From the NCBI GenBank assembly GCA_021825655.1, contig JAKAGU010000005.1, positions 12,400-76,399 on the forward strand: DNA of 64,000 nucleotides. The letters are read 5' to 3'. Both the position numbers and the translations under genes were made by a program. Positions 39,596 to 50,290 of this stretch are shown one piece after another. Under the pieces are notes generated by a model. That model saw nothing but the letters and a program-made list of their open reading frames with translations, was not told where the DNA came from and did no database searches. The DNA comes from a bacterium. Lineage in GTDB: Bacteria > Patescibacteriota > Doudnabacteria > UBA920. Each line of letters starts with the position of its first letter. Positions within the stretch are counted from its first letter, which is position 1.

Positions 39596-40063
39596 ATGCC
39601 GCATATCAACGAAAAACTAGATTTTACCGCCACGGTTTTCATTGTCCATGACAATAAGGTTTTGCTGCGCATGCACGACAAATACAATGTCTGGCTGGGC
39701 GTGGGCGGGCACATTGAGCCTGGTGAGGACCCAATTGAGGCGCTTTATCGGGAAGTGAAAGAGGAGTGCGGATTGGAATTTGAGCTGGCCGGGAGGCGCC
39801 CGCAGAATTTTTCCGCAGAGTCGGAGGATTTGCCCGTACCCGCTTTTATCAATCGGCACCATACCGGACCCGGCCACGAACATGTTGACATGCTGTATGT
39901 GGCCAGGGCTAAAACCCTTACCATCCAGCCCGGCCCGGAGGAAAAGCAGGTTGAGTTCAGGTGGTTTGCCCGGGAGGAGCTGGAAAATTCGGAGTTAACC
40001 ATAAACGATCACACCCGCTATTATGCGGCGGAAGCGATTAAGCTCGCTTTGGTTAAAGATTAA
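39596..40063 (+). CDS. NUDIX hydrolase
   Basis: Nudix box GGHIEPGEDPIEALYREVKEECGL. Confidence 0.8.
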   Translation: MPHINEKLDFTATVFIVHDNKVLLRMHDKYNVWLGVGGHIEPGEDPIEALYREVKEECGLEFELAGRRPQNFSAESEDLPVPAFINRHHTGPGHEHVDMLYVARAKTLTIQPGPEEKQVEFRWFAREELENSELTINDHTRYYAAEAIKLALVKD

Positions 40064-40075
40064 ATAACAAAATTT

Positions 40076-40420
40076 ATGACTGACGAAAAATGGGAACAGC
40101 TGGTGCAGGCCGCAAAAAACCATTTTGAGGATGTGTCCATAAAGTCGGAAGCGCTGCTTAGGGATACGCCCGAGGGACAGCAAACGGAAGGCACCCAGGA
40201 TGTGTTGGAATTCGAAAAGCAGGGCGGGCGTTTCCGGCTGGTGCGCGAAAACCGGCCCGCGGTATTGGAAAAAAAACAGTACTTTTCCCACCGCATGGGC
40301 GATACCGCCCGCACGGAATATAAATTGTCGGACACGGAATTTTCCCACAAGCTGAAAGTCTACAAAGAGGTGGGGTACGATGACTGGGAAGAAGTGACTT
40401 TGGATAAGTTAGGCTTGTAA
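40076..40420 (+). CDS. hypothetical protein (114 aa)
   Basis: ORF only. Confidence 0.45.
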   Translation: MTDEKWEQLVQAAKNHFEDVSIKSEALLRDTPEGQQTEGTQDVLEFEKQGGRFRLVRENRPAVLEKKQYFSHRMGDTARTEYKLSDTEFSHKLKVYKEVGYDDWEEVTLDKLGL

Positions 40421-40427
40421 AAGCAAA

Positions 40428-41345
40428 ATGCTTTCAGACCGGATTTTGGAAACTTTGCGGTTTTTTGACCTGCAGGATTACCCCCTGACGCTTTTGGAAA
40501 TTTGCACCTATTTGTTGCCGGAGAAAGAAAACCTGGCCGGATTATTAGATGCGCAGCACGAATTCCGCGGTGCGGCGCCTGTTGCTGGGGCCGCGTCGGT
40601 GCCGGCGCTGGCTATTGCGGAGTGTTTGAGCGGCGAACTGGCCGAGAGAACGGAGTGTCACCGCGGGTTTTATTGTTTAAAGGGACGCGGAGGGATTATC
40701 CGGCAGCGCTTGCTTAATTATTTGCACGGCATGTTTCGGGAAAAGCGCGTTGCCCGGTTTGCCCGCGGCCTGAAATGGATACCCTTTGTCCGGGGCGTGG
40801 GCCTGGCCGGTAGCCAGGTTTTGGGCCAGCAGAAAGACACTTCCGATATTGATTTGTTTATTATCACTGATGAAAACCGCATGTGGCTGGCCCGTACCTT
40901 GGTTACTGCCTATTTCCAGATATTGGGGCTCAGGCGCCACGGGACAAAGGTAAAAAACCGTTTTTGCCTTAACCACTATGTCGCGGGGGATAAGGAGCTC
41001 ACCAAACTGCGCAATTTGTACACGGCGCTGGAATACGCCAAGCTGCGCCCCTTGGCGGGCGCCCGGGCCGTGGCCGCATTCCAGAAAAAAAATCAGGCCT
41101 GGATTTCAGGTTTTTACCCCAATTGGCAGGCGCCAACGGCCCAGGCGCCTGCTGCTTCGCCAGTCCAGGTGTTTTTGGAAAAACTTTTTCAGGGCAAATT
41201 CGGCGCGTGGCTGGAAGCCCGGCTCAAAGCCTGGCAGCTGCCGAAAATCCGCACGGAAAAATACATCCTCGTGGCTGACGACGAGCTGTCGTTTCATCCT
41301 GACAGCAAGCAGGAGTTTTTACTTAAGCGGTTTTTCGAAAATTAG
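40428..41345 (+). CDS. nucleotidyltransferase-fold protein (Pol-beta superfamily)
   Basis: GS...DIDLFIITD motif (hG[GS]x9-13DhD). Confidence 0.5.
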   Translation: MLSDRILETLRFFDLQDYPLTLLEICTYLLPEKENLAGLLDAQHEFRGAAPVAGAASVPALAIAECLSGELAERTECHRGFYCLKGRGGIIRQRLLNYLHGMFREKRVARFARGLKWIPFVRGVGLAGSQVLGQQKDTSDIDLFIITDENRMWLARTLVTAYFQILGLRRHGTKVKNRFCLNHYVAGDKELTKLRNLYTALEYAKLRPLAGARAVAAFQKKNQAWISGFYPNWQAPTAQAPAASPVQVFLEKLFQGKFGAWLEARLKAWQLPKIRTEKYILVADDELSFHPDSKQEFLLKRFFEN

Positions 41346-42065
41346 GGCCAAAAGCAAGGGGTAGCGGAAAAGCTGGTAGGCAAGGTCAAAGTCCGGGCTG
41401 TCGGTCCCGGATTTTATTTCGATCAGGCTTTTTTGCTCCAGACCTGCGCCGTTTGCGGCCCGGGCGTAGTCCGCGAGCGTGTAATAGAAAGAGGGGATTT
41501 TAATCCGGCCAAACTCGCGCTGGATTTTTTGTCCCGAAGGCCAGACCTGGGGGCTAATCTTCAGCTTTGGCTTTTGCCGCAAAAGCCAGCCTAATACACC
41601 CCGCTTCCAGACGGCTTTTGGGAAAGTCAGGTCCGGATTGGGTACGGTAATAATCAGCCGGCCTAAAGGTTTAAGCGTTCGGGCCACGTTTTGGAAAGCC
41701 GAGTTTAGATTTTCAATATCCGGAGCGGCCATGTTCAAAACAACGCAATCAAAGCTGTCCGTTGCAAACGGCAGGGGCTGCATAACATCCGCAATTTCCA
41801 GGCGCGCATTTGGCGCGATTTTTTTGGCCAGAGCCAGCAGGGCGGGGGAGGCGTCAAAGCCGGCCAGTTTTTGGTAATCCGGACGCAGCAGGGCCAAAAG
41901 CCAGCCCGAACCGCACGCCGCGTCTAAAACCGCAGCCTGGGGGTTTGGGGGCAGGAGGGGCCTTAGGGTTTGATACAGGAATTTTTGCTGCAGCCGGCCG
42001 TTGTGCGAGGCCAGAAAACGGAGGTAGTTGCGGACAAATTTTTCCTCTTGATATCCCGGGTTCAT
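41319..42065 (-). CDS. class I SAM-dependent methyltransferase
   Basis: Motif I VLDAACGSGWLL; post-I acidic residue (GFDAS). Confidence 0.75.
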   Translation of the reverse strand: MNPGYQEEKFVRNYLRFLASHNGRLQQKFLYQTLRPLLPPNPQAAVLDAACGSGWLLALLRPDYQKLAGFDASPALLALAKKIAPNARLEIADVMQPLPFATDSFDCVVLNMAAPDIENLNSAFQNVARTLKPLGRLIITVPNPDLTFPKAVWKRGVLGWLLRQKPKLKISPQVWPSGQKIQREFGRIKIPSFYYTLADYARAANGAGLEQKSLIEIKSGTDSPDFDLAYQLFRYPLLLALIFEKPLK

Positions 42066-42101
42066 GGTGGTATTATACCACCCAGGCGTAAAAACCGGGT
42101 A

Positions 42102-42128
42102 TTATCACTCAGCTTGACAGAGTGATAA
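42102..42128. promoter_or_regulatory. CIRCE-like HrcA operator TTATCACTC-N9-GAGTGATAA, overlapping a TTGACA-16-TATAAT promoter
   Basis: Perfect 9-bp inverted repeat with a 9-nt spacer (one G-to-T change from the TTAGCACTC consensus). TTGACA at 42114-42119, TATAAT at 42136-42141, groES ATG at 42200. Confidence 0.7.
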
Positions 42129-42199
42129 AATCGGTTATAATTAAACGGTAGTAATTAATTTTGCCTCCAAAAAGCAGGGGCAAGCGAAAGAGAAACCAT

Positions 42200-42505
42200 A
42201 TGAAAATCAAACCTCTCGGCGACCGGATTTTGGTGAAGCAGTTGTCCAGCGAAGAAGTGACCAAAAGCGGCATTGTGCTGCCCGAAACCGCAGACAAGGA
42301 AAAAAAGGCCCAGGGCACGATTGTAGCCTTAGGCAATGGCGAAGAGCTAAAAACTTTGGGGCTCAAAGTGGGTGACGTGGTGGTTTTTGGCAAGTACGCG
42401 GGCGATGAAGTGGAGATGGAAGAAGACGGCAAAAAACATGAATACAAAGTTTTATATGTCGGCAAGGTTAAAGACGAGTCCGATATTTTGGCAATTGTTG
42501 AATAA
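42200..42505 (+). CDS. groES: co-chaperonin GroES
   Basis: MKIKPLGDRILVK...; start taken at the internal Met consistent with the promoter/CIRCE position. Confidence 0.9.
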   Translation: MKIKPLGDRILVKQLSSEEVTKSGIVLPETADKEKKAQGTIVALGNGEELKTLGLKVGDVVVFGKYAGDEVEMEEDGKKHEYKVLYVGKVKDESDILAIVE

Positions 42506-42520
42506 GTAACCAAATAATAA

Positions 42521-44197
<1,677 letters not shown>

Positions 44198-44292
44198 AAA
44201 GTCTGAAATAGGAAATTTTAGACCCCTGCAAAAGCAGGGGTCTTATTTTTTGGCTTATTTAAGACCAAAGTCTTCAAATATAAGCAAAAGCC

Positions 44293-44321
44293 TTGACAAA
44301 CTGTCAATTTTAGTGTACAAT
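44293..44321 (+). promoter_or_regulatory. promoter TTGACA-17-TACAAT with ~520 nt before the first convincing ORF
   Basis: Read directly; it precedes a structured non-coding stretch and then five small ORFs. Confidence 0.5.
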
Positions 44322-44849
44322 TGCCAGTTACGATCTAAAAGTCGTACTTAACAATTTCATATAGATATCTGTCTGTTTTTAACAGGAGAGCACACGGATA
44401 TCGCCCTCACGCCAATCTTCACCAGGCATGATTTAGAGACGAGCGAATTTTTACATAGAGTCATCTGCTATACAGACTTGTTGAGGATTGGTGTGGGGGA
44501 CTTACATGCTCCTGATTTCGCTAATACCGGATTGGGGGCGCGATAAAGCCGTGGCACAAGAACGATTTTACTTTGGTTCTCCTGTCCACGGTTTTTTGTT
44601 TTTTCAAACCGGGGGAATATCGTGTTTTATTCCAAGTTTGGTTATAATTCCTTTTGGCAGCGTGGGCCTTTGGAGGGCAAATAATATTTGGCATCTGCTA
44701 CGATGCTTAGGCCTGTTTCTCAAAGACCCACATTGGCGGAAGGAATTTTTTTGTCCGGAACGCTGTTGCGCTTTTTAAGAGCCCAGCAGCCTTCCGGGCA
44801 GACTGCCGCACTTGTGCGGCAAATCCATTCTGTCTTTGAAGGAGGGGGT

Positions 44850-45170
44850 ATGAGAAAGTCCAAAACGATGTTGGTGTGCCAGTTGGCTTTCGCGCTCCTG
44901 ATTTTAGGGACTGCCGGCAAGATGCTCTGGCAGTTCAAACAGTACACAGTCGTGATGATGGTCGGCGGGCCGGAGAAGTTTAACCGGCTTCAGGCCGATG
45001 CCAATCGCCATGCACAGCAGTTCATCATTGAGCACGGCGGCAGCGCCTTGCTCGAATGGAATGGGCTCGGTAACAACGAACCCACCGTGTACGTGCTTTT
45101 GCACTTGCACGAAGGTTACACCGTCCATCCGGACGGCCGGGTGGAAAAGAACGGAGAGGAGAAACCCTAG
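44850..45170 (+). CDS. small membrane/secreted protein (106 aa)
   Basis: GGAGGGGG SD; N-terminal hydrophobic segment MLVCQLAFALLILGTAG; GC-rich. Confidence 0.45.
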   Translation: MRKSKTMLVCQLAFALLILGTAGKMLWQFKQYTVVMMVGGPEKFNRLQADANRHAQQFIIEHGGSALLEWNGLGNNEPTVYVLLHLHEGYTVHPDGRVEKNGEEKP

Positions 45171-45344
45171 ATGGAGGAAATCGTGAGTGACCTGTTCAAG
45201 GAGTTGGCAGCGTGCTGCCAGTTCAAGTGGCGGGGAATGAACCCCGAGTACAAGTTGGTCTGGAAGATCGTCGGCGCGGCATTCGCGCTGCTGGTCTTTG
45301 CGGCCGCTGTTTCGGGCCTGGCCCTGCTCGTGGGGCCGAGGTAG
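45171..45344 (+). CDS. small membrane protein (57 aa)
   Basis: ATG immediately after the previous stop (TAGATG); C-terminal TM IVGAAFALLVFAAAVSGLALLV. Confidence 0.35.
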   Translation: MEEIVSDLFKELAACCQFKWRGMNPEYKLVWKIVGAAFALLVFAAAVSGLALLVGPR

Positions 45345-45453
45345 CCAACAACATGGACAAACAGAGGGGGCGGGGTAGCTAACCAGCTTATTTCCGCCCA
45401 TCTCCAAACTTGCCAAGTATTCTTGGGAATAGTTGCCAGGTTTGGGGAGAAAT

Positions 45454-45717
45454 ATGTTTAACAAAATGATGATGGCGACTCTCGTCGTCTTGGTGCTTGG
45501 CGGTTTTGCCGTCGAAATCTGCTGGGCCAAGAATTTGGTCAAACAGACACTGAGAGACGAAGAGCTGATGCAGGCGTTCCGAGCGTTCGGGCGCTTTCTG
45601 ATGACCCCATTCCGGTCCCTGGGTACGGCCCTGGACCAACAGTTCAACACGCTAGTCGACACGGCGCAAACCGTGCTCTGGCCGAAAAAACGAGAGGAGG
45701 GGAAAGAAAAGTGGTAA
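45454..45717 (+). CDS. small membrane/secreted protein (87 aa)
   Basis: GGGGAGA SD; TM MMMATLVVLVLGGFAV. Confidence 0.4.
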   Translation: MFNKMMMATLVVLVLGGFAVEICWAKNLVKQTLRDEELMQAFRAFGRFLMTPFRSLGTALDQQFNTLVDTAQTVLWPKKREEGKEKW

Positions 45718-45857
45718 AGGAAAAGCTCCTTTGGCCATTTATGATGGCGGCAGGGTTTGTTCTCCTTGCCATCATCCTTGCGTCGCTTTGGCGCAAGAAT
45801 CTGGAAGACCGGCTCAATGACCCAACCCGCCCGCCTGGGCAGTGGTTGTACCGCTGA
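45711..45857 (+). CDS. small membrane protein (48 aa, GTG start overlapping the previous stop)
   Basis: GAGGAGG SD 10 nt upstream; TM FMMAAGFVLLAIILASLW. Confidence 0.3.
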   Translation: MVKEKLLWPFMMAAGFVLLAIILASLWRKNLEDRLNDPTRPPGQWLYR

Positions 45858-45867
45858 GGGAGCAGGC

Positions 45868-46014
45868 ATGGATAAGCTGCTCATTGCAAACGCCGTATTT
45901 TTCTCGGCGCTCGGCCTGTTTTTCCTTCATGACTTGCTGTTCGGCAAACCCATCGACCGGTCTGACCGGTCCGACAAGTCCAACCGACAGCATCGGCGCG
46001 GGCGCGGTGGATAG
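45868..46014 (+). CDS. small membrane protein (48 aa)
   Basis: GAGGGAG SD; TM AVFFSALGLFFL. Confidence 0.35.
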   Translation: MDKLLIANAVFFSALGLFFLHDLLFGKPIDRSDRSDKSNRQHRRGRGG

Positions 46015-46246
46015 ACAACAGTCTTTCCAAAGCGCCCCCAACCCCCTTTAAGCCTGTTTCTTATCCGTTGGCGATTCGCTAACTTTCGCAAATATCCCAA
46101 AAGGATAAATGCCAAGGCCAGCGTCCTGTTATCGCCAGCGGGTAAGAGCCAGTCTTACCGCTTTACAAGTTTTTTAATCGGGCATAATATGCAGTCAAGT
46201 TTGGTACCCACCAAACTATTCCATGTCCTAGGAGGACAATTAACAC

Positions 46247-46486
46247 ATGAAGAACCAGGAGCTTTGGGCTCAGGGTATACAAGACGGGTTCAACAACCTC
46301 GTGGATCACGAGAACCAGAACCCGCTGTATTGGCGGGGAGTAACAGAAGGTGATCGTCGCTATCACCAGTGGCTGGCGGAAGGACGCTTCACCGAGCAGG
46401 AGACGTTCGTCGACGCACTCCAGCACGTCCAGGAGGACTACCACAATCCGGTCGGGATGCCGCTGCTGAGCGCGTTCGCAATTTAA
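46247..46486 (+). CDS. small hypothetical protein (79 aa)
   Basis: AGGAGG SD; soluble, Trp/His-rich. Confidence 0.45.
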   Translation: MKNQELWAQGIQDGFNNLVDHENQNPLYWRGVTEGDRRYHQWLAEGRFTEQETFVDALQHVQEDYHNPVGMPLLSAFAI

Positions 46487-46670
46487 ACCGCCCGCAGAGG
46501 CGGCGAACACACCAGACGGTATTATAAAATCCTCCCCCATTGCCCAAAGCCGAGAAGCTGTAAGCCTACAAAGGCAGGAGCGCCCGCTTCCTGCCTTTTC
46601 TTTTGACAAAATTTGTCATTTTTAGTATACTTTAGCTACTTTTATTATCTTTAAAAGGAAATTTACTTTC

Positions 46671-46841
46671 ATGGGCGTTCCCAAAAAGCACAAGACCCGT
46701 AGCGGCCGCAACCAGAGGCGCAGCCATTTGTCCCTTAAGCCGAAGAGCTTTGCCACCTGCAAAAACTGCGGCGAACCGGTTATGCCTCACTATCCGTGCA
46801 AAAACTGCGGCTATTACAAAGGCAGAAAAGTAACCAAGTAA
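46671..46841 (+). CDS. rpmF: 50S ribosomal protein L32
   Basis: MGVPKKHKTRSGRNQRRSH...CKNCG...CKNCGYYKG zinc-ribbon L32; below the ORF-track length cutoff. Confidence 0.85.
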   Translation: MGVPKKHKTRSGRNQRRSHLSLKPKSFATCKNCGEPVMPHYPCKNCGYYKGRKVTK

Positions 46842-46879
46842 GCTTGGTTATTTTTTTATCGTTAAGCTGAACAAATTTT

Positions 46880-47320
46880 ATGGCATCAAGGCATCTTGCC
46901 CGCACCGTGGCCATGCAATCCCTGTTTGAGTGGGATTTTAACGGTCGCAAGGAAGAACTTAAAAAAATTATTGCCACCAACCTGGGCGAGTTCGCTTCGG
47001 ATATTAAGGAGCCGGAGTTCGTGTACGGTTTGGCCGAAGGCGTGGCGGAAAATCTGCCCGCCATTGACCTGGTGATTGCCAAAACCGCACCCGACTGGCC
47101 GGTAGACCAGATACCCGACGTGGACCGCAGCGTTTTGCGTCTAGGGATTTACGAACTGCAGTTTCAAAAACAGGCTCCGCCCAAAGTGGTTATCAACGAA
47201 GCGGTGGAGCTGGCCAAAACCTTCGGGGGCGAGCAGAGCGGCAAGTTTGTGAACGGCGTGCTTGGCACGCTTTACAAGCAGATGCAGGCCGCCGGCGAAA
47301 TTACCGAAGAAAAAAAATAA
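46880..47320 (+). CDS. nusB: transcription antitermination factor NusB
   Basis: [18 protein letters not shown]-terminal helix typical of NusB; terminator AACACTCCTTAAGAGGAGTGTT plus T-run follows. Confidence 0.8.
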
Positions 47321-47361
47321 TTTTTTAACACTCCTTAAGAGGAGTGTTTTTTTAAAATTTT

Positions 47362-47385
47362 GGTTCGAACATCGTTCCATAGGGA
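47362..47385 (+). repeat. left copy of a 24-bp direct repeat GGTTCGAACATCGTTCCATAGGGA
   Basis: 22 of 24 positions identical to the 48840-48863 copy; together they bracket the AT-rich gene. Confidence 0.8.
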
Positions 47386-47491
47386 CTGCTATGACTTTTA
47401 AACCATCCGAAAAGGTGTTTTTTTTATTAATTGACTTTAAATAAAGGGGGTTTTAAACTTAAAGTGGTGTTCATATTTAAAAATAATAAAA

Positions 47492-48787
47492 ATGGCTGAA
47501 GATTATAACGCAGATTTAATTACCCAACTTTTTCTTACTGACGACGTGGAAAAAGCTAAAGAAATTTCAGACGAAATGGTAGGCATAGGGAATCTAATTT
47601 TTCCTCGAATAATATACGAGGCATACAAAAAATTTAAAAACACGTCTAGCTCCCACTATTTTATCTCAGATCTTGCGGGATTTAGGTCACCTGAAGTAGC
47701 AGAAATTATGAAAGAAATAGCCCATGAGGCTACAAAATCTGCTGATTTTGAATTTACACTCGACTACCTGGCAGACATTGAATACTTCGATCCTACTATA
47801 ATCGAAAAAGCTAGCACCTTACTTAAGGACAAGCTATTCCTAAAAGGAACAGATGAGTATGACGTGGAAGCGTGCTTGGCGTATTTAAAAAAATCAAAAA
47901 ATGGCATAAAAGATTTAGAACCCGTATTACAAGCATGCTTTGAAAATGAGGGTCTTGCATACTCCCTAAGAACTAAGGTTCTTCGAGATCTCTTGGTCTC
48001 GAATAAACAACTCATTAACTATTACTACGAAAATTACGATAAAATAAAAAACAAAAAGGCCGAAATAATTTTTGCTGAAGAAATTTCTACATGGCAGGGA
48101 GGGATAATACCAGAACTTCATAAAAAGATTTTAAAAAACGGCTCTAGAAGGGCACAAGAAATCATAGAAGAAGCACAGACAAAAAGAACCAAAACAAAAG
48201 ATCAAGCCGAAAAAAAAGAACAAGAAAAGATAAAAGGTACATACGAAACAGCAGATATTGTTTCCGGCATTGCTGCATTAAGGACAAAGGTTAACAGGAT
48301 CAGCTCGGCTGATAAAAGGTTTGGCTTTCCTTTCTTTGCACAATCGGAAGAATTTTATGAACAAAATAAACCCGCTCAAAATAAAGCCTCTTTAGTGGGT
48401 TATTGTATGGTTCTACGAGAGTTCCTGCAAAAATTTGATGAAGCTATAAAAGATTCCGTGATCCCAGTAGACAAAGCAAAGCAATTTTTACCTGAAATAC
48501 AGGACTGGGGTGGAAGTATTAATAAATTTCACTATCTACTTTTGGATAAAGGTGTAACTGTAGATAAAGGAATTTTCGGTTTAAGAAATATAAATAGACT
48601 TGTTACAAAACTTGCACACCCAAACGAAACACTAGGGGAAGAATTTATTAATTTGTTGACTGAAGAAAAATTATTGGATATGTATACAAAAGACAACTGG
48701 TCACTGTTGCATAGAGAAATATTACTACGATATGAAAAAGTATTAGAAAAATTAATCGCAGCTCTTTCGGAGGGAAGTACTGGCTAA
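47492..48787 (+). CDS. hypothetical helical protein (431 aa) in an AT-rich island
   Basis: Long ORF with K/E/I-rich, AT-biased codon usage (about 35% GC by eye) unlike its neighbours; no motif recognised. Confidence 0.6.
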   Translation: MAEDYNADLITQLFLTDDVEKAKEISDEMVGIGNLIFPRIIYEAYKKFKNTSSSHYFISDLAGFRSPEVAEIMKEIAHEATKSADFEFTLDYLADIEYFDPTIIEKASTLLKDKLFLKGTDEYDVEACLAYLKKSKNGIKDLEPVLQACFENEGLAYSLRTKVLRDLLVSNKQLINYYYENYDKIKNKKAEIIFAEEISTWQGGIIPELHKKILKNGSRRAQEIIEEAQTKRTKTKDQAEKKEQEKIKGTYETADIVSGIAALRTKVNRISSADKRFGFPFFAQSEEFYEQNKPAQNKASLVGYCMVLREFLQKFDEAIKDSVIPVDKAKQFLPEIQDWGGSINKFHYLLLDKGVTVDKGIFGLRNINRLVTKLAHPNETLGEEFINLLTEEKLLDMYTKDNWSLLHREILLRYEKVLEKLIAALSEGSTG

Positions 48788-48839
48788 TATTAGTTACAGT
48801 TCCAATTTAGTCAAAAAAGGCTGACGTTTTCTCAACTTC

Positions 48840-48863
48840 GGTTTGAACATCGTTTCATAGGGA
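48840..48863 (+). repeat. right copy of the 24-bp direct repeat GGTTTGAACATCGTTTCATAGGGA
   Basis: See the left copy. Confidence 0.8.
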
Positions 48864-49102
48864 ATATCTGAAATAAATTATATTATTTGATTGTAGGAAC
48901 GATAGGAAAGCAGAAAATACCTAGTTTTGGCTTTCGCCTGCGGGTTTTTTCTCTTCTGGCTATACAAGTTTTTACCCCGGAACCCAAGCCCTGGACAACC
49001 GGCATAAAATTCCTCTAATTTGTAGTTGATTTATTGGAATAGTGCTATAATATGTAGGCATTTGACCCAAGATAATTAACCCATAAAAGGAGACCTACGC
49101 AT

Positions 49103-49396
49103 ATGAACAAGCTGCAATTTACGGAACAATTGGCGGCCAAATTGGGCATTACCGTCAGCGAAGCCGAAAGGTATTTGAACACCTTTATCCAAATGGTTTA
49201 CGATGTGCTTAGAAACGGTGATAAAGTAAACATTTCAGGCTTTGGCCAGTTCAGCGTATCCCATCGCGCTCCCAGAATCGGTGTTAACCCCCGGAACCCT
49301 ACCCAGAAGATTACCATTCCGGAATTGAATACGCCGAAGTTCAAGGCTGGCGAGGCTTTCAAGGAAGCGGTGAAGCTGAGAAGCCCCCAGGGTTAG
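49103..49396 (+). CDS. hupB: DNA-binding protein HU
   Basis: HU/IHF fold with beta-arm (GFGQFSVSHRAPRIGVNPRNPTQKITIP); extended -10 TGCTATAAT upstream. Confidence 0.9.
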   Translation: MNKLQFTEQLAAKLGITVSEAERYLNTFIQMVYDVLRNGDKVNISGFGQFSVSHRAPRIGVNPRNPTQKITIPELNTPKFKAGEAFKEAVKLRSPQG

Positions 49397-49487
49397 GAAT
49401 TTTTATTAATTTTAGTCAGAGCGAAAACCCCCGGAAAGGGGGTTTTATTTTTTCTTTGAAAATGTTATAATCAGCACACGAAAAAAT

Positions 49488-49562
49488 GCGGGTATCGTAT
49501 AATGGTTATTATCTCAGTTTTCCAAACTGATGATGCGGGTTCGATTCCCGCTACCCGCTCCA
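49488..49562 (+). tRNA. tRNA-Gly (anticodon UCC)
   Basis: Acceptor GCGGGTA/TACCCGC, anticodon stem TCAGT/ACTGA with loop TTTCCAA, T-arm GGTTCGATTCC, CCA encoded. Confidence 0.9.
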
Positions 49563-49572
49563 AGGCAATCCT

Positions 49573-50091
49573 ATGAATTATTTTCTTTTATCAATAGCTA
49601 TTGTGGCAGGCTATTTTTTTATTGTCTTTGTTCTGCTCCGTTTGGTCGCCCCGTATATGGGGTTCAGGCCGTACCCTTTGCCTGTTGAGATTCCAGGGGA
49701 AATGAAAAGCGCAATCTTGAATTTGGAAAACCAAACCCAAGACCAGAATTCATATTTGGAAGCTGTTTATAGATTTGTTTTGGGTCGCTGGGAGCACAGC
49801 CGACTGAAAGCCGGGCTGTTGTTGCCCAAGCTGTTTAAAAAAGATTTAACAGAAATTTGGCACACCAAAGGCTTTGTCTATTGCACCAGCATAAATTTTA
49901 TTGTTTACGTGCTTTTGGCTAAGAGTAAATATTTTACCGCTCAAGATGTTAAGATCAGGCATGTTTTTTTAAACTTCGTACCACACCAATACTTACAGGT
50001 TAGGATTGGGGAAAAATGGGTTGACGTTGACCCTGCTGGGGCGGGCATAAGAAACCAGCCTTTGGGTACGCATGCTAGTTTTTTTGGCTAA
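49573..50091 (+). CDS. membrane protein with a transglutaminase-like (Cys-His-Asp) core
   Basis: N-terminal TM; candidate triad GFVYCTSINF...HQYLQVRIGEKWVDVDPAG resembling papain-like transglutaminase folds. Confidence 0.5.
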   Translation: MNYFLLSIAIVAGYFFIVFVLLRLVAPYMGFRPYPLPVEIPGEMKSAILNLENQTQDQNSYLEAVYRFVLGRWEHSRLKAGLLLPKLFKKDLTEIWHTKGFVYCTSINFIVYVLLAKSKYFTAQDVKIRHVFLNFVPHQYLQVRIGEKWVDVDPAGAGIRNQPLGTHASFFG

Positions 50092-50152: not shown

Positions 50153-50290
50153 ATGTGCATATCAAGAGAGCAGTTAGGGAACTAGCCCGATGACCTGCCG
50201 GCAACCTGTCCTTTTATGGATAAGGTGCCACCTCTAGCCCTTCACAGGGAAAGATAATTTTTATACCCGTGAAGAACGGGATTTTTTATT
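50153..50290 (+). promoter_or_regulatory. SAM-I (S-box) riboswitch with an intrinsic terminator, leader of metK
   Basis: ATCAAGAGAGCAG..AGGGAACTAGCCCGATGACCTGCCGGCAACC...GGTGCCA matches conserved S-box positions; the expression-platform terminator is CCCGTGAAGAACGGG plus TTTTTTATT. Confidence 0.8.

What the first reader, a model, noticed from the sequence alone, without database searches (positions are those of the whole stretch)
44293..46486. GC-rich operon of five overlapping small membrane-protein ORFs behind a 520-nt leader
A TTGACA-17-TACAAT promoter (44293-44321) is followed by ~520 nt with many short hairpins and no convincing ORF. Then come five 48-106-aa ORFs (44850-46014), each with a strong SD (GGAGGGGG, GAGGAGG, GAGGGAG, ...) and each containing one hydrophobic helix. 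Two start at or overlap the previous stop (TAGATG, GTGGTAA), a sign of translational coupling. A sixth 79-aa soluble ORF follows. The block is GC-rich relative to groEL and rpmF, and most of its ORFs fall below standard annotation length cutoffs. Candidate functions are a small-protein membrane complex, holin/bacteriocin-immunity-like modules or type-I-toxin-like peptides. The leader could hold a riboswitch or sRNA.
Basis: partly seen in the sequence, partly recalled or inferred. Interest (0 to 1): 0.55.

Follow-up and report, generated by a model that had tools for sequence, protein, structure and literature searches.

The report
Conserved structured RNA leading small-membrane-protein operon
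Between groEL and rpmF of an uncultured Patescibacteria (CPR) genome lie a previously undescribed, very strongly conserved structured RNA and, behind it, a real operon of fast-evolving single-pass membrane proteins; this gives a new RNA family and a candidate attenuation switch to test in a poorly understood bacterial group.

Summary
A near-consensus promoter (44293-44321) is followed by ~520 nt without a conserved reading frame. Then come five SD-led, partly overlapping single-helix ORFs, a sixth soluble ORF and a terminator (46570-46598).

The ORFs look real. All six are intact in two related species, and substitutions against the closer one favour third codon positions (dN/dS 0.12-0.44). 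They diverge so fast that homologues are barely detectable outside the genus.

The main result is the "leader". It is more conserved than groEL: 98-100% against ~92% in one species, and 94-100% in its conserved domains against 75% in another. It belongs to RNA families with no Rfam match.
- RNA1 has a promoter, hairpins, an invariant core hairpin and an intrinsic terminator. It occurs once per locus in 79 Patescibacteria loci, always between groEL and rpmF.
- RNA2 is a 100-nt hairpin found in about 40 loci.
- Smaller motifs are an SD-sequestering hairpin before ORF3 and a rod after ORF5.

Covariation supports RNA1 and RNA2.

Long-form RNA1 carries ACAGGAGAG, which is complementary to the terminator's 3' strand. 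This pair co-occurs with RNA2 and the small-ORF island. I infer a default-off attenuator that also yields an sRNA; the effector is unknown.

Holin, type I toxin, bacteriocin-immunity and mobile-element readings find no support.

The parts
44293..44321 (+). Sigma-70-type promoter of RNA1 (TTGACA-17-TACAAT)
   Evidence: 11/12 match. The promoter is conserved at the same place in 14 full-length homologues.
44328..44604 (+). RNA1, long form (~280 nt). It runs H1 hairpin 44329-44346, an A/U-rich single strand, H2 44364-44402, the long helix H3 44404-44499, the core hairpin and terminator T1.
   Evidence: MFE -100.5 kcal/mol, z = -6.7. It is 98-100% identical to L013, where groEL has dS 0.36. RNAalifold on 14 homologues gives 44 pairs, 20 of them with compensatory changes. 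No Rfam match.
44382..44390 (+). Conserved ACAGGAGAG motif in H2, the proposed 5' strand of the antiterminator (P1)
   Evidence: Complementary to 44577-44585. The two motifs co-occur in 28 loci, occur alone in 13 and are both absent in 34 (OR 22.7). On A2 91.6% of cells pair, against 38-61% for slid controls, but there is no compensatory change.
44504..44543 (+). Invariant core hairpin of RNA1 (CAUGCUCCUGAUUUCG-loop-CCGGAUUGGGGGCGC)
   Evidence: One copy per locus in 79 loci. Pairing is 96.9% against at most 55% for slid controls; across the core hairpin and the T1 base stem, 9 pairs change on both sides against 3.2 +/- 1.2 in shuffles, 0/500. Conserved G.U pairs show the RNA is on the + strand.
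44545..44604 (+). Intrinsic terminator T1: a long hairpin and U-run, with the A-tract pairing to the U-tract. It contains UUCUCCUGU at 44577-44585.
   Evidence: Hairpin -22.5 kcal/mol. A conserved base stem and U-run are present in most of the 29 aligned homologues.
44646..44754 (+). RNA2: a 102-nt hairpin with conserved internal loops (GUGGGCC...AGGAGGGCAAA...GACCCAC), followed by U7
   Evidence: 34 pairs, 20 with compensatory changes; covariation 0.478 against 0.221, 0/500. The covariance model hits about 40 loci on the RNA1 strand at 44-126 bits, against about 21-44 bits on the antisense strand.
44750..44821 (+). Hairpins H8 (44750-44802) and H9 (44804-44821) just upstream of the ORF1 SD
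   Evidence: Fold. H9 shows compensatory changes in L013 (GCCGC/GCGGC to GCCGU/ACGGC) and in species C.
44850..45170 (+). ORF1, 106 aa: N-terminal membrane anchor, then a helix and a four-stranded sheet
   Evidence: dN/dS 0.12, with 25 of 43 substitutions at third positions. Homologues are P0002 (88%), P0005 (about 45-49%) and proteins in L016, L031 and L137. AF2 mean pLDDT 75, with no significant PDB fold match.
45171..45344 (+). ORF2, 57 aa, C-terminal transmembrane helix; its start abuts the ORF1 stop (TAGATG)
   Evidence: dN/dS 0.37. Intact in L013, L131 and species C.
45368..45448 (+). RNA3: a GC-rich hairpin followed by a hairpin that sequesters the ORF3 SD (CUCCAAACUUGCCA.../...UUGCCAGGUUUGGGGAG)
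   Evidence: -42.5 kcal/mol, z = -5.2. Homologous copies lie before small ORFs in L131, L137 (two), L138 (two), L031 and L126.
45454..45717 (+). ORF3, 87 aa, N-terminal transmembrane helix or signal-like sequence
   Evidence: dN/dS 0.18. Homologues in L013, L131 and L030, with a syntenic 84-aa ORF in species C.
45711..45857 (+). ORF4, 48 aa, one transmembrane helix; its GTG start overlaps the ORF3 stop (GTGGTAA)
   Evidence: Frame kept in L013, L131 and species C despite ~44% aa identity.
45868..46014 (+). ORF5, 48 aa, one transmembrane helix and a basic tail ending in RRGRGG
   Evidence: dN/dS 0.28 in the true frame (row 'ORF5 f+2'). Intact in L013 and species C, with a homologue in L021. Not called in public annotation.
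46058..46148 (+). RNA4: a conserved rod-like hairpin after ORF5 (CCGUUGGCGAU...AUCGCCAGCGG)
   Evidence: -42.4 kcal/mol, z = -6.4. Identity is 96-98% to L013 and 86% to species C. Homologues in L131, L034, L137 and L024 show compensatory changes in the outer stem, read by eye.
46162..46190 (+). Weak promoter-like site before ORF6 (TTTACA-17-TAATAT)
   Evidence: 9/12 match. Conserved in L013 but not in species C.
46247..46486 (+). ORF6, 79 aa, soluble; a variable accessory gene
   Evidence: dN/dS 0.21. The only other homologues are P0003 and P0004. Species C has a different 64-aa ORF in its place.
46570..46598 (+). Intrinsic terminator that closes the block, just before the separate rpmF promoter (46603-46631)
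   Evidence: z = -3.3.

Best explanation
The block is one transcription unit specific to a Patescibacteria clade.

A strong promoter drives RNA1, a highly structured RNA of a family not previously described. By default transcription stops at the intrinsic terminator T1, giving a ~280-nt sRNA. The core hairpin of this sRNA is the universally conserved, probably factor-bound element.

In the long form present here, RNA1 also acts as an attenuating leader. The motif ACAGGAGAG (44382-44390) can pair with UUCUCCUGU (44577-44585) in the 3' strand of T1. That pairing closes a three-way junction around H3 and the core hairpin and prevents the terminator from forming.

Read-through then transcribes RNA2, a conserved 5'-UTR hairpin, and ORF1-ORF5. 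These encode five rapidly evolving single-pass membrane proteins. ORF1 and ORF2 are translationally coupled, as are ORF3 and ORF4, and ORF3 is further gated by an SD-sequestering hairpin (RNA3).

Shown: the parts, their conservation, the structures, and the coding status of the ORFs.
Inferred: the switch, that it is off by default, the unknown effector, and the envelope or host-interface role of the proteins.
For: RNA conservation exceeds that of coding sequence.
- Against L013 the leader is 98-100% identical. groEL is ~92% identical, with dS 0.36.
- Against species C, H3 is 99%, the core hairpin 100% and RNA2 94% identical. groEL is 75%, nusB 81% and the ORFs 48-60%.

Structure is supported by covariation.

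Distribution and context.
- RNA1 occurs once per locus in 79 loci, always between groEL and rpmF on the same strand.
- In L034, RNA2 begins about 12 nt after the T1 U-run, which leaves no room for a promoter.
- The covarying outer stem of RNA2 abuts the only TATAAT in that stretch. RNA2 must therefore be transcribed by read-through of T1.

The proposed switch.
- The ACAGGAGA and CUCCUGU motifs co-occur (28 both, 7 and 6 alone, 34 neither; OR 22.7, p = 1e-8).
- Loci with this motif pair also have RNA2 and an island of 0.7-7.4 kb (27 loci). The 24 loci with neither include all 12 in which the core lies under 330 nt from rpmF.
- The terminator conformer is -100.5 kcal/mol and the forced antiterminator -86.6 kcal/mol.

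The ORFs are coding: frames are intact in L013 and species C, dN/dS against L013 is 0.12-0.44, and substitutions favour third positions only in the proposed frames. Small hydrophobic ORFs are strongly biased to the + strand across the clade.
Against: - The antiterminator pairing shows no compensatory change, because both strands are conserved. The co-occurrence statistic is not corrected for phylogeny.
- The antiterminator conformer is 14 kcal/mol less stable, and no effector is known.
- Short-form RNA1 has its own terminator, and rpmF has a separate promoter downstream of it. The core hairpin therefore has a function that does not depend on the operon.
- No expression data are available.
- An unrecognised promoter between T1 and RNA2 cannot be ruled out in this window (H6 region, 44607-44643).
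- The proteins have no family assignment.
Confidence: 0.5

Rival explanations
1. RNA1 is only a stand-alone, trans-acting or RNP-forming sRNA gene that sits next to rpmF. The small-ORF island is an independent variable insertion downstream, with its own unrecognised promoter. The ACAGGAGAG/UUCUCCUGU complementarity would then be a tertiary or pseudoknot contact of the mature RNA, not a switch.
For: - Short forms of about 110-150 nt, with their own promoter and terminator, exist without any island. A separate rpmF promoter follows them.
- The stems of the core hairpin are invariant in sequence while its loop varies. That pattern is typical of factor recognition rather than a ligand pocket.
- The terminator conformer is the ground state.
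Against: - The outer stem of RNA2 must be transcribed from upstream, and in L034 it starts about 12 nt after T1.
- The long-form motif pair, RNA2 and the island are inherited together: 27 loci have both the motif pair and RNA2, 24 have neither and 4 are mixed.
Confidence: 0.27
2. RNA1 is a Nus-factor (NusB/NusE, boxA-type) element tied to the downstream rpmF-nusB operon. It would act either in autoregulation of nusB or as a processive-antitermination site (H1 as boxB, CUUAACAAUUU as boxA) that lets RNA polymerase pass T1 and the RNA2 U-run.
For: - RNA1 is always upstream of rpmF-nusB on the same strand.
- A hairpin followed by an A/U-rich conserved single strand sits at a fixed position after the -10 element.
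- L116, L119 and L025 carry perfect matches to YTCTTTAANA (CTCTTTAAAA, TTCTTTAAAA).
- A putative boxA upstream of ribH-nusB in Pseudomonas suggests nusB autoregulation, and Nus-factor autoregulation is described as widespread (PMC5725501).
Against: - In this window the best boxA match has 3 mismatches, no better than shuffles.
- Across 32 long forms the mean is 2.0 mismatches against 2.6 in shuffles.
- Terminators and a separate promoter lie between RNA1 and rpmF.
- The rrn boxA of this clade is unknown.
Confidence: 0.1
3. The ORFs are toxic or lytic small peptides: type I toxins with RNA antitoxins, holin-like proteins or bacteriocin-immunity proteins. Alternatively they are cargo of a mobile element or prophage remnant.
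For: The products are small hydrophobic peptides of 48-57 aa. Structured RNAs are dense around them. Gene content turns over quickly between related genomes.
Against: - The locus is at a fixed syntenic position in 79 loci, and no integrase, lysin or transposase family was matched.
- PHROGs and PADLOC give no hits.
- Viral, phage and plasmid collections give no match.
- The only antisense promoter-like site is a weak 9/12 match. The structures are sense-specific: RNA2 scores 126 bits on the sense strand and 23.5 on the antisense strand.
- Five coupled cistrons under purifying selection do not resemble type I loci.
Confidence: 0.06
4. The small ORFs are chance open frames inside a long non-coding RNA.
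For: No protein family hit was found. The region is full of conserved RNA structure. A 326-aa antisense ORF shows that long chance ORFs do occur here.
Against: - All six frames, starts and stops are kept in L013 and five of them in species C, despite 40-55% nucleotide divergence and indels.
- Third-position excess and low dN/dS appear only in the proposed frames.
- The antisense ORF is broken in L013.
- The ORF1 family is detectable across the clade.
Confidence: 0.03

Closest known systems
Terminator/antiterminator leaders (riboswitch expression platforms such as the pbuE adenine ON switch; protein-dependent attenuators such as PyrR or the L4-S10 leader)
   Same: The layout is the same: promoter, structured 5' domain, intrinsic terminator, then genes. 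A conserved 5' segment is complementary to one strand of the terminator. The proposed P1 helix would close a three-way junction. The terminator fold is the ground state.
   Different: There is no match to any Rfam family. The stems are conserved in sequence rather than only in structure, and no ligand or protein partner is known. The pairing lacks compensatory support. The same RNA also exists in a short form with no regulated operon behind it.
Dual-function leader/sRNA elements (terminated riboswitch transcripts that act in trans, such as the SAM riboswitch-derived SreA, or the SAM-I/sRNA of Desulfovibrio in bioRxiv 10.1101/803072)
   Same: A strongly transcribed leader whose terminated product would be an abundant, stable small RNA, while read-through expresses the downstream genes.
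   Different: No target or effector has been identified, and the trans activity is purely inferred.
rrn/lambda-type boxB-boxA Nus antitermination sites and boxA-mediated Nus-factor autoregulation (PMC5725501)
   Same: A hairpin followed by a U/A-rich single strand (CUUUAAAA, UUAACAA) close to the transcription start, upstream of an operon that contains nusB.
   Different: The consensus match is weak in this window (3 mismatches). Intrinsic terminators and a second promoter intervene before rpmF-nusB.
SD-sequestering translational operators and RNA thermometers (ROSE, fourU)
   Same: RNA3 pairs the ORF3 SD (GGGGAG) with an upstream CUCCAAAC segment in an imperfect helix rich in G.U pairs. It recurs before several small ORFs.
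   Different: The sequence family is different, the helix is longer, and it is preceded by a GC-rich hairpin. Temperature response has not been tested.
Clusters of small single-pass membrane proteins (for example accessory subunits of envelope complexes) and type I toxins
   Same: The products are 48-106 aa with one hydrophobic helix, strong SDs and overlapping stop and start codons.
   Different: There is no homology to any described family. Five cistrons are arranged in tandem, under purifying but fast evolution, with only a weak antisense promoter-like match (9/12).

Membership tests
Any Rfam 15 family (riboswitches, leaders, sRNAs, tmRNA, RNase P, SRP, 6S) | A covariance-model match at or near the gathering score | tested here: not met
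   Nothing above noise in 40000-50000 (E<=1), 44280-44870 (E<=10) or 45330-46260 (E<=10). ARAGORN finds no tmRNA.
Intrinsic (Rho-independent) terminator | A stable G+C-containing hairpin followed directly by a U-run | tested here: met
   T1 at 44545-44604 is -22.5 kcal/mol and is followed by UUUUUUGUUUUUU. It is present in most of 29 aligned homologues. The block-end terminator 46570-46598 is also found.
Transcription-attenuation leader / riboswitch-like switch | A conserved structured domain supported by covariation | tested here: met
   for RNA1; for RNA2.
Transcription-attenuation leader / riboswitch-like switch | Mutually exclusive terminator and antiterminator pairings | tested here: inconclusive
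   An 8-9-bp complementarity is conserved (91.6% paired against 38-61% slid) and its two halves co-occur (OR 22.7). There are no compensatory changes, and the alternative fold is 14 kcal/mol weaker.
Transcription-attenuation leader / riboswitch-like switch | Consistent association with one class of downstream genes | tested here: met
   All 27 loci with both the motif pair and RNA2 have an island (core to rpmF 744-7447 nt). The first ORF after RNA2 is a small single-TM protein in many loci.
Transcription-attenuation leader / riboswitch-like switch | An identified ligand or protein effector | not testable with these tools
   This needs in-line probing, pull-downs or genetics.
boxA / Nus-factor site | A match to the boxA consensus (GYTCTTTAANA, or the clade's own rrn boxA) in single-stranded RNA near the 5' end | tested here: inconclusive
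   The window's best match has 3 mismatches, which 97% of shuffles equal or beat. Three relatives match YTCTTTAANA perfectly. The mean is 2.0 against 2.6 mismatches. The clade's rrn boxA is not available.
Type I toxin-antitoxin | A small hydrophobic toxin plus an overlapping or divergent antisense RNA with its own promoter | tested here: not met
   Small hydrophobic ORFs are present. The only antisense promoter-like site is 9/12, inside ORF1. The RNA structures are sense-specific. The five cistrons are coupled and under purifying selection.
Holin / phage lysis cassette | Homology to holin families, or an adjacent endolysin or spanin in a phage context | tested here: not met
   No PHROGs hit. 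There is no lysin among the neighbouring genes and no viral or phage match.
Ribosomal-protein (L32) autoregulatory leader | The element lies in the 5' UTR of the regulated r-protein mRNA | tested here: not met
   A terminator and a separate rpmF promoter lie between RNA1 and rpmF, both here and in the minimal loci. No L32 leader is among the ribosomal leader candidates described in PMC7247131. rRNA mimicry could not be tested.
MITE / dispersed repeat (considered for RNA2) | Many copies at unrelated genomic sites, with strand-neutral inverted repeats | tested here: not met
   One copy in the 64-kb window. It is always downstream of RNA1. The sense strand scores 44-126 bits and the antisense strand about 21-44 bits. 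L037 alone has five same-strand copies inside its island.

The most novel reading that the evidence does not exclude
RNA1 is the first member of a new class of CPR-specific regulatory RNA. Its invariant hairpin would bind a conserved cellular factor or ligand. In its long form it would work as a three-way-junction ON-switch that opens a hypervariable operon of small envelope proteins, possibly used at the interface between these episymbiotic bacteria and their hosts. RNA2, RNA3 and RNA4 would be further new cis-regulatory families of the same regulon.
Probability: 0.3. Interest if true: 0.8.

Novelty: new variant of a known kind. Interest (0 to 1): 0.62.

Why it matters
Patescibacteria (CPR) make up a large share of bacterial diversity, yet almost nothing is known about their regulatory RNAs or their many small hypothetical membrane proteins.

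This locus provides:
- A very strongly conserved RNA: its H3 helix and core hairpin are 99-100% identical between species whose groEL differs by 25%. It has covariation-supported structure, no Rfam match and a fixed genomic address.
- A concrete switch hypothesis that can be tested by mutation.
- A set of small proteins that are truly coding but diverge so quickly that homology searches miss them.

The locus is a ready entry point for metatranscriptome mining, in vitro termination assays and ligand or protein fishing. It also shows that the non-coding part of a "small ORF" finding can be the more constrained and more informative part.

Tried and rejected
1. Within-species variation. Twelve contigs carrying ORF1 or ORF6 are 100% identical to the window, so they are no use for selection tests.

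2. The antisense 326-aa ORF (44904-45884). It is broken in L013, has dN/dS 0.67 and no family hit, so it is an artefact.

3. A coding reading of the leader (the 96-aa ORF starting MLLIS...). The peptide recurs in relatives only because the nucleotides are conserved. Hairpin lengths of 31, 32 and 33 nt break the frame.

4. A DNA palindrome or recombination site for the core hairpin. This is rejected because the G.U pairs are invariant and strand-specific.

5. Base-pairing between the RNA1 3' arm (UUGGGGGCGC, 44532-44541) and GCGCCCCCAA at 46032-46041. The target is present only in the window and L013, and absent from the other 77 loci.

6. tmRNA, RNase P, SRP or 6S identity. There are no ARAGORN or Rfam matches and, from my own knowledge of these RNAs, none of their signature motifs is visible.

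7. boxA. The match is weak or inconclusive.

9. Literature. Searches found no described L32 leader in this group and no description of this RNA.
Full report
**Origin and layout**

The window is contig JAKBZI010000001.1 of assembly GCA_021840085.1. By the titles of the related records it is a Patescibacteria (CPR) MAG related to Doudnabacteria-like genomes. The finding lies between groEL (42524-44197) and rpmF (46671-46841).

The unit is delimited as follows:
- The groEL terminator at 44220-44243.
- A promoter at 44293-44321 with an 11/12 match.
- A terminator at 46570-46598.
- A separate rpmF promoter at 46603-46631.

**Checking the observation**

The six ORFs, their SDs and the two junctions (TAGATG; GTGGTAA) are as described. 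ORF5 starts at 45868.

GC enrichment is slight. Public gene calls already contain ORF1-4 and ORF6. The leader is built from long hairpins, not short ones; its two halves fold at -100.5 and -104.6 kcal/mol, with z = -6.7 and -6.6.

**Are the ORFs genes?**

Identical contigs gave no variation. A search of 5.8 billion proteins found one relative of ORF1, P0002 at 88% identity. Its contig, L013, is syntenic.

All six ORFs are intact in L013. dN/dS values against L013 are:

| ORF | dN/dS |
|---|---|
| ORF1 | 0.12 |
| ORF2 | 0.37 |
| ORF3 | 0.18 |
| ORF4 | 0.44 |
| ORF5 | 0.28 |
| ORF6 | 0.21 |

Third-position excess appears only in the proposed frames. For comparison, groEL has dN/dS 0.018 and dS 0.36. 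The 326-aa antisense ORF is broken in L013.

A third species (L145 plus L144, found through P0005) keeps ORF1-5 in order, at only about 45% amino-acid identity for ORF1. It has a different sixth ORF. Across relatives, small hydrophobic ORFs with an SD are almost exclusive to the + strand, 42 against 1.

No library assigns any of the six to a family: Pfam, PHROGs, NCBIfam and PADLOC all give nothing. ORF1 models as a membrane anchor, a helix and a four-stranded sheet (pLDDT 75), with no significant PDB match. Its C-terminus weakly resembles tectonin-like blade repeats.

**The leader is the most constrained part**

| Segment | Identity to L013 | Identity to species C |
|---|---|---|
| groEL | ~92% | 75% |
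| nusB | not summarised | 81% |
| Leader 44361-44760 | 98-100% | see rows below |
| RNA1 H3 | within leader | 99% |
| RNA1 core hairpin | within leader | 100% |
| RNA2 | within leader | 94% |
| 45961-46160 (RNA4 region) | 96-98% | 86% (RNA4 core) |
| ORFs | 58-95% per 100-nt window | 48-60% |

Sources are for L013 and for species C. Rfam finds nothing in any of these regions.

**Distribution of RNA1**

Fetching loci around NusB from one genome per GTDB species gave 80 Patescibacteria loci. The leader has homologues in at least 29 of them. These include every locus where groEL lies upstream of rpmF-nusB in the fetched DNA.

An exact pattern for the core hairpin found 50 more metagenome loci and none in viral contigs. 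In all of them the context is the same: groEL upstream and rpmF-nusB downstream on the same strand, wherever the contig reaches those genes. There is one copy per locus. A covariance model found no copy in 53 more distant Patescibacteria loci.

**Structure of RNA1 and RNA2**

For the core hairpin and the base stem of T1, 96.9% of cells pair, against at most 55% in slid controls. Nine pairs change on both sides, against 3.2 +/- 1.2 in shuffles (0/500). Invariant G.U pairs place the RNA on the + strand. The full-length alignment gives 44 pairs, 20 of them compensatory, mostly in H3.

RNA2 (44646-44747) has 34 pairs, 20 compensatory, and a covariation score of 0.478 against 0.221 (0/500). Its model hits about 40 loci, always downstream of RNA1. 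The sense strand scores far above the antisense strand.

**Two further motifs**

RNA3 lies before ORF3. It sequesters the SD and recurs before small ORFs in five other loci. RNA4 is a rod-like hairpin after ORF5, with four homologous loci and, by eye, compensatory changes in its outer stem.

**Two forms of RNA1**

In minimal loci such as L046, L019 and L097, a ~110-150-nt RNA has its own promoter and terminator. It is followed by a separate rpmF promoter, with no ORFs in between. RNA1 is therefore a gene in its own right.

The long form adds H1, H2 and H3. Its H2 carries ACAGGAGAG, which is complementary to UUCUCCUGU in the 3' strand of the upper stem of T1.

- The two motifs co-occur: 28 loci have both, 13 have one and 34 have neither (OR 22.7).
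- Loci with this pair also have RNA2 and an island (27 loci, core to rpmF 744-7447 nt).
- The 24 loci with neither feature include all 12 in which the core lies under 330 nt from rpmF.
- The pairing is kept in 91.6% of cells but without compensatory change.
- It is 14 kcal/mol weaker than the terminator fold.

RNA2 must be made by read-through of T1. Its covarying outer stem starts at the only TATAAT in that stretch, and in L034 it begins about 12 nt after the U-run.

**Mechanism proposed**

Termination at T1 is the default and gives an sRNA. An unknown effector stabilises the ACAGGAGAG/UUCUCCUGU helix, which closes a three-way junction around H3 and the core hairpin. RNA polymerase then continues through RNA2 into ORF1-5. 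Translation is coupled for ORF1 with ORF2 and for ORF3 with ORF4, and RNA3 gates ORF3. ORF6 is a variable accessory gene with a weak promoter of its own.

The parts, their conservation and their structures are shown. The switch, its default-off state, the effector and the envelope role of the proteins are inferred.

**Rivals and rejected ideas**

- A pure sRNA beside an independent island.
- A Nus/boxA element. The boxA match is inconclusive (PMC5725501).
- Toxin, holin or mobile-element readings. There are no phage or plasmid matches.
- Non-coding ORFs.

A 10-nt complementarity between RNA1 and RNA4 is confined to this genus. Literature searches found no description of this RNA.

Noticed in passing
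window 50156-50260 (+): A SAM-I riboswitch (Rfam RF00162, 55.3 bits against a gathering score of 44.4) lies just upstream of the S-adenosylmethionine synthetase gene. This is an ordinary arrangement, and it shows that standard riboswitches in this genome are detectable.
   Followed up: no
window 47492-48787 (+): A 431-aa ORF of only 30-37% GC sits in a ~50% GC genome, directly after nusB. It has no Pfam or PADLOC family. Species C has a 744-aa LTD-domain protein in the same slot (L144 2910-5144). This looks like a second variable, probably acquired, slot.
   Followed up: partly
window 44904-45884 (-): A 326-aa antisense ORF spans ORF1-5. It is broken into pieces in L013 and has dN/dS 0.67, so it is a chance ORF.
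   Followed up: yes
L013 9450-9510 (inserted after window 44357): A 61-nt insertion with apparent hairpin potential interrupts RNA1 between H1 and H2 in the sister species. The rest of the RNA is ~99% identical. This marks a site in the RNA that tolerates expansion.
   Followed up: no
L037 2484-5229: One relative has five same-strand copies of the RNA2 hairpin within a 9.7-kb stretch upstream of rpmF. This suggests that RNA2 can be duplicated as a module in front of successive cassettes.
   Followed up: partly
window 44532-44541 and 46032-46041: There is a perfect 10-nt complementarity between the invariant 3' arm of the RNA1 core hairpin and RNA4. It is present only in the window and L013, and absent from the other 77 loci.
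   Followed up: yes
window 45030-45150 (ORF1 residues ~62-100): The ORF1 ectodomain matches a ~35-aa repeat (W.ELDNNPAT...LYQLH..GRIW) found 5-12 times in large tectonin-like or propeller proteins. ORF1 carries only a single unit.
   Followed up: partly
L027 429, L034 883, L017 ~5780, L056 ~4900, L049 ~7900 (between groEL and RNA1): Several relatives carry an extra, poorly conserved helical ORF of 74-303 aa between groEL and the RNA1 promoter. The window has only 95 nt there.
   Followed up: no
record titles of L016, L021, L053, L067 and others: Many MAG records that carry this Patescibacteria-type locus are titled 'uncultured Candidatus Saccharibacteria' or 'Gammaproteobacteria'. The taxonomic labels of these third-party assemblies look unreliable.
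   Followed up: no
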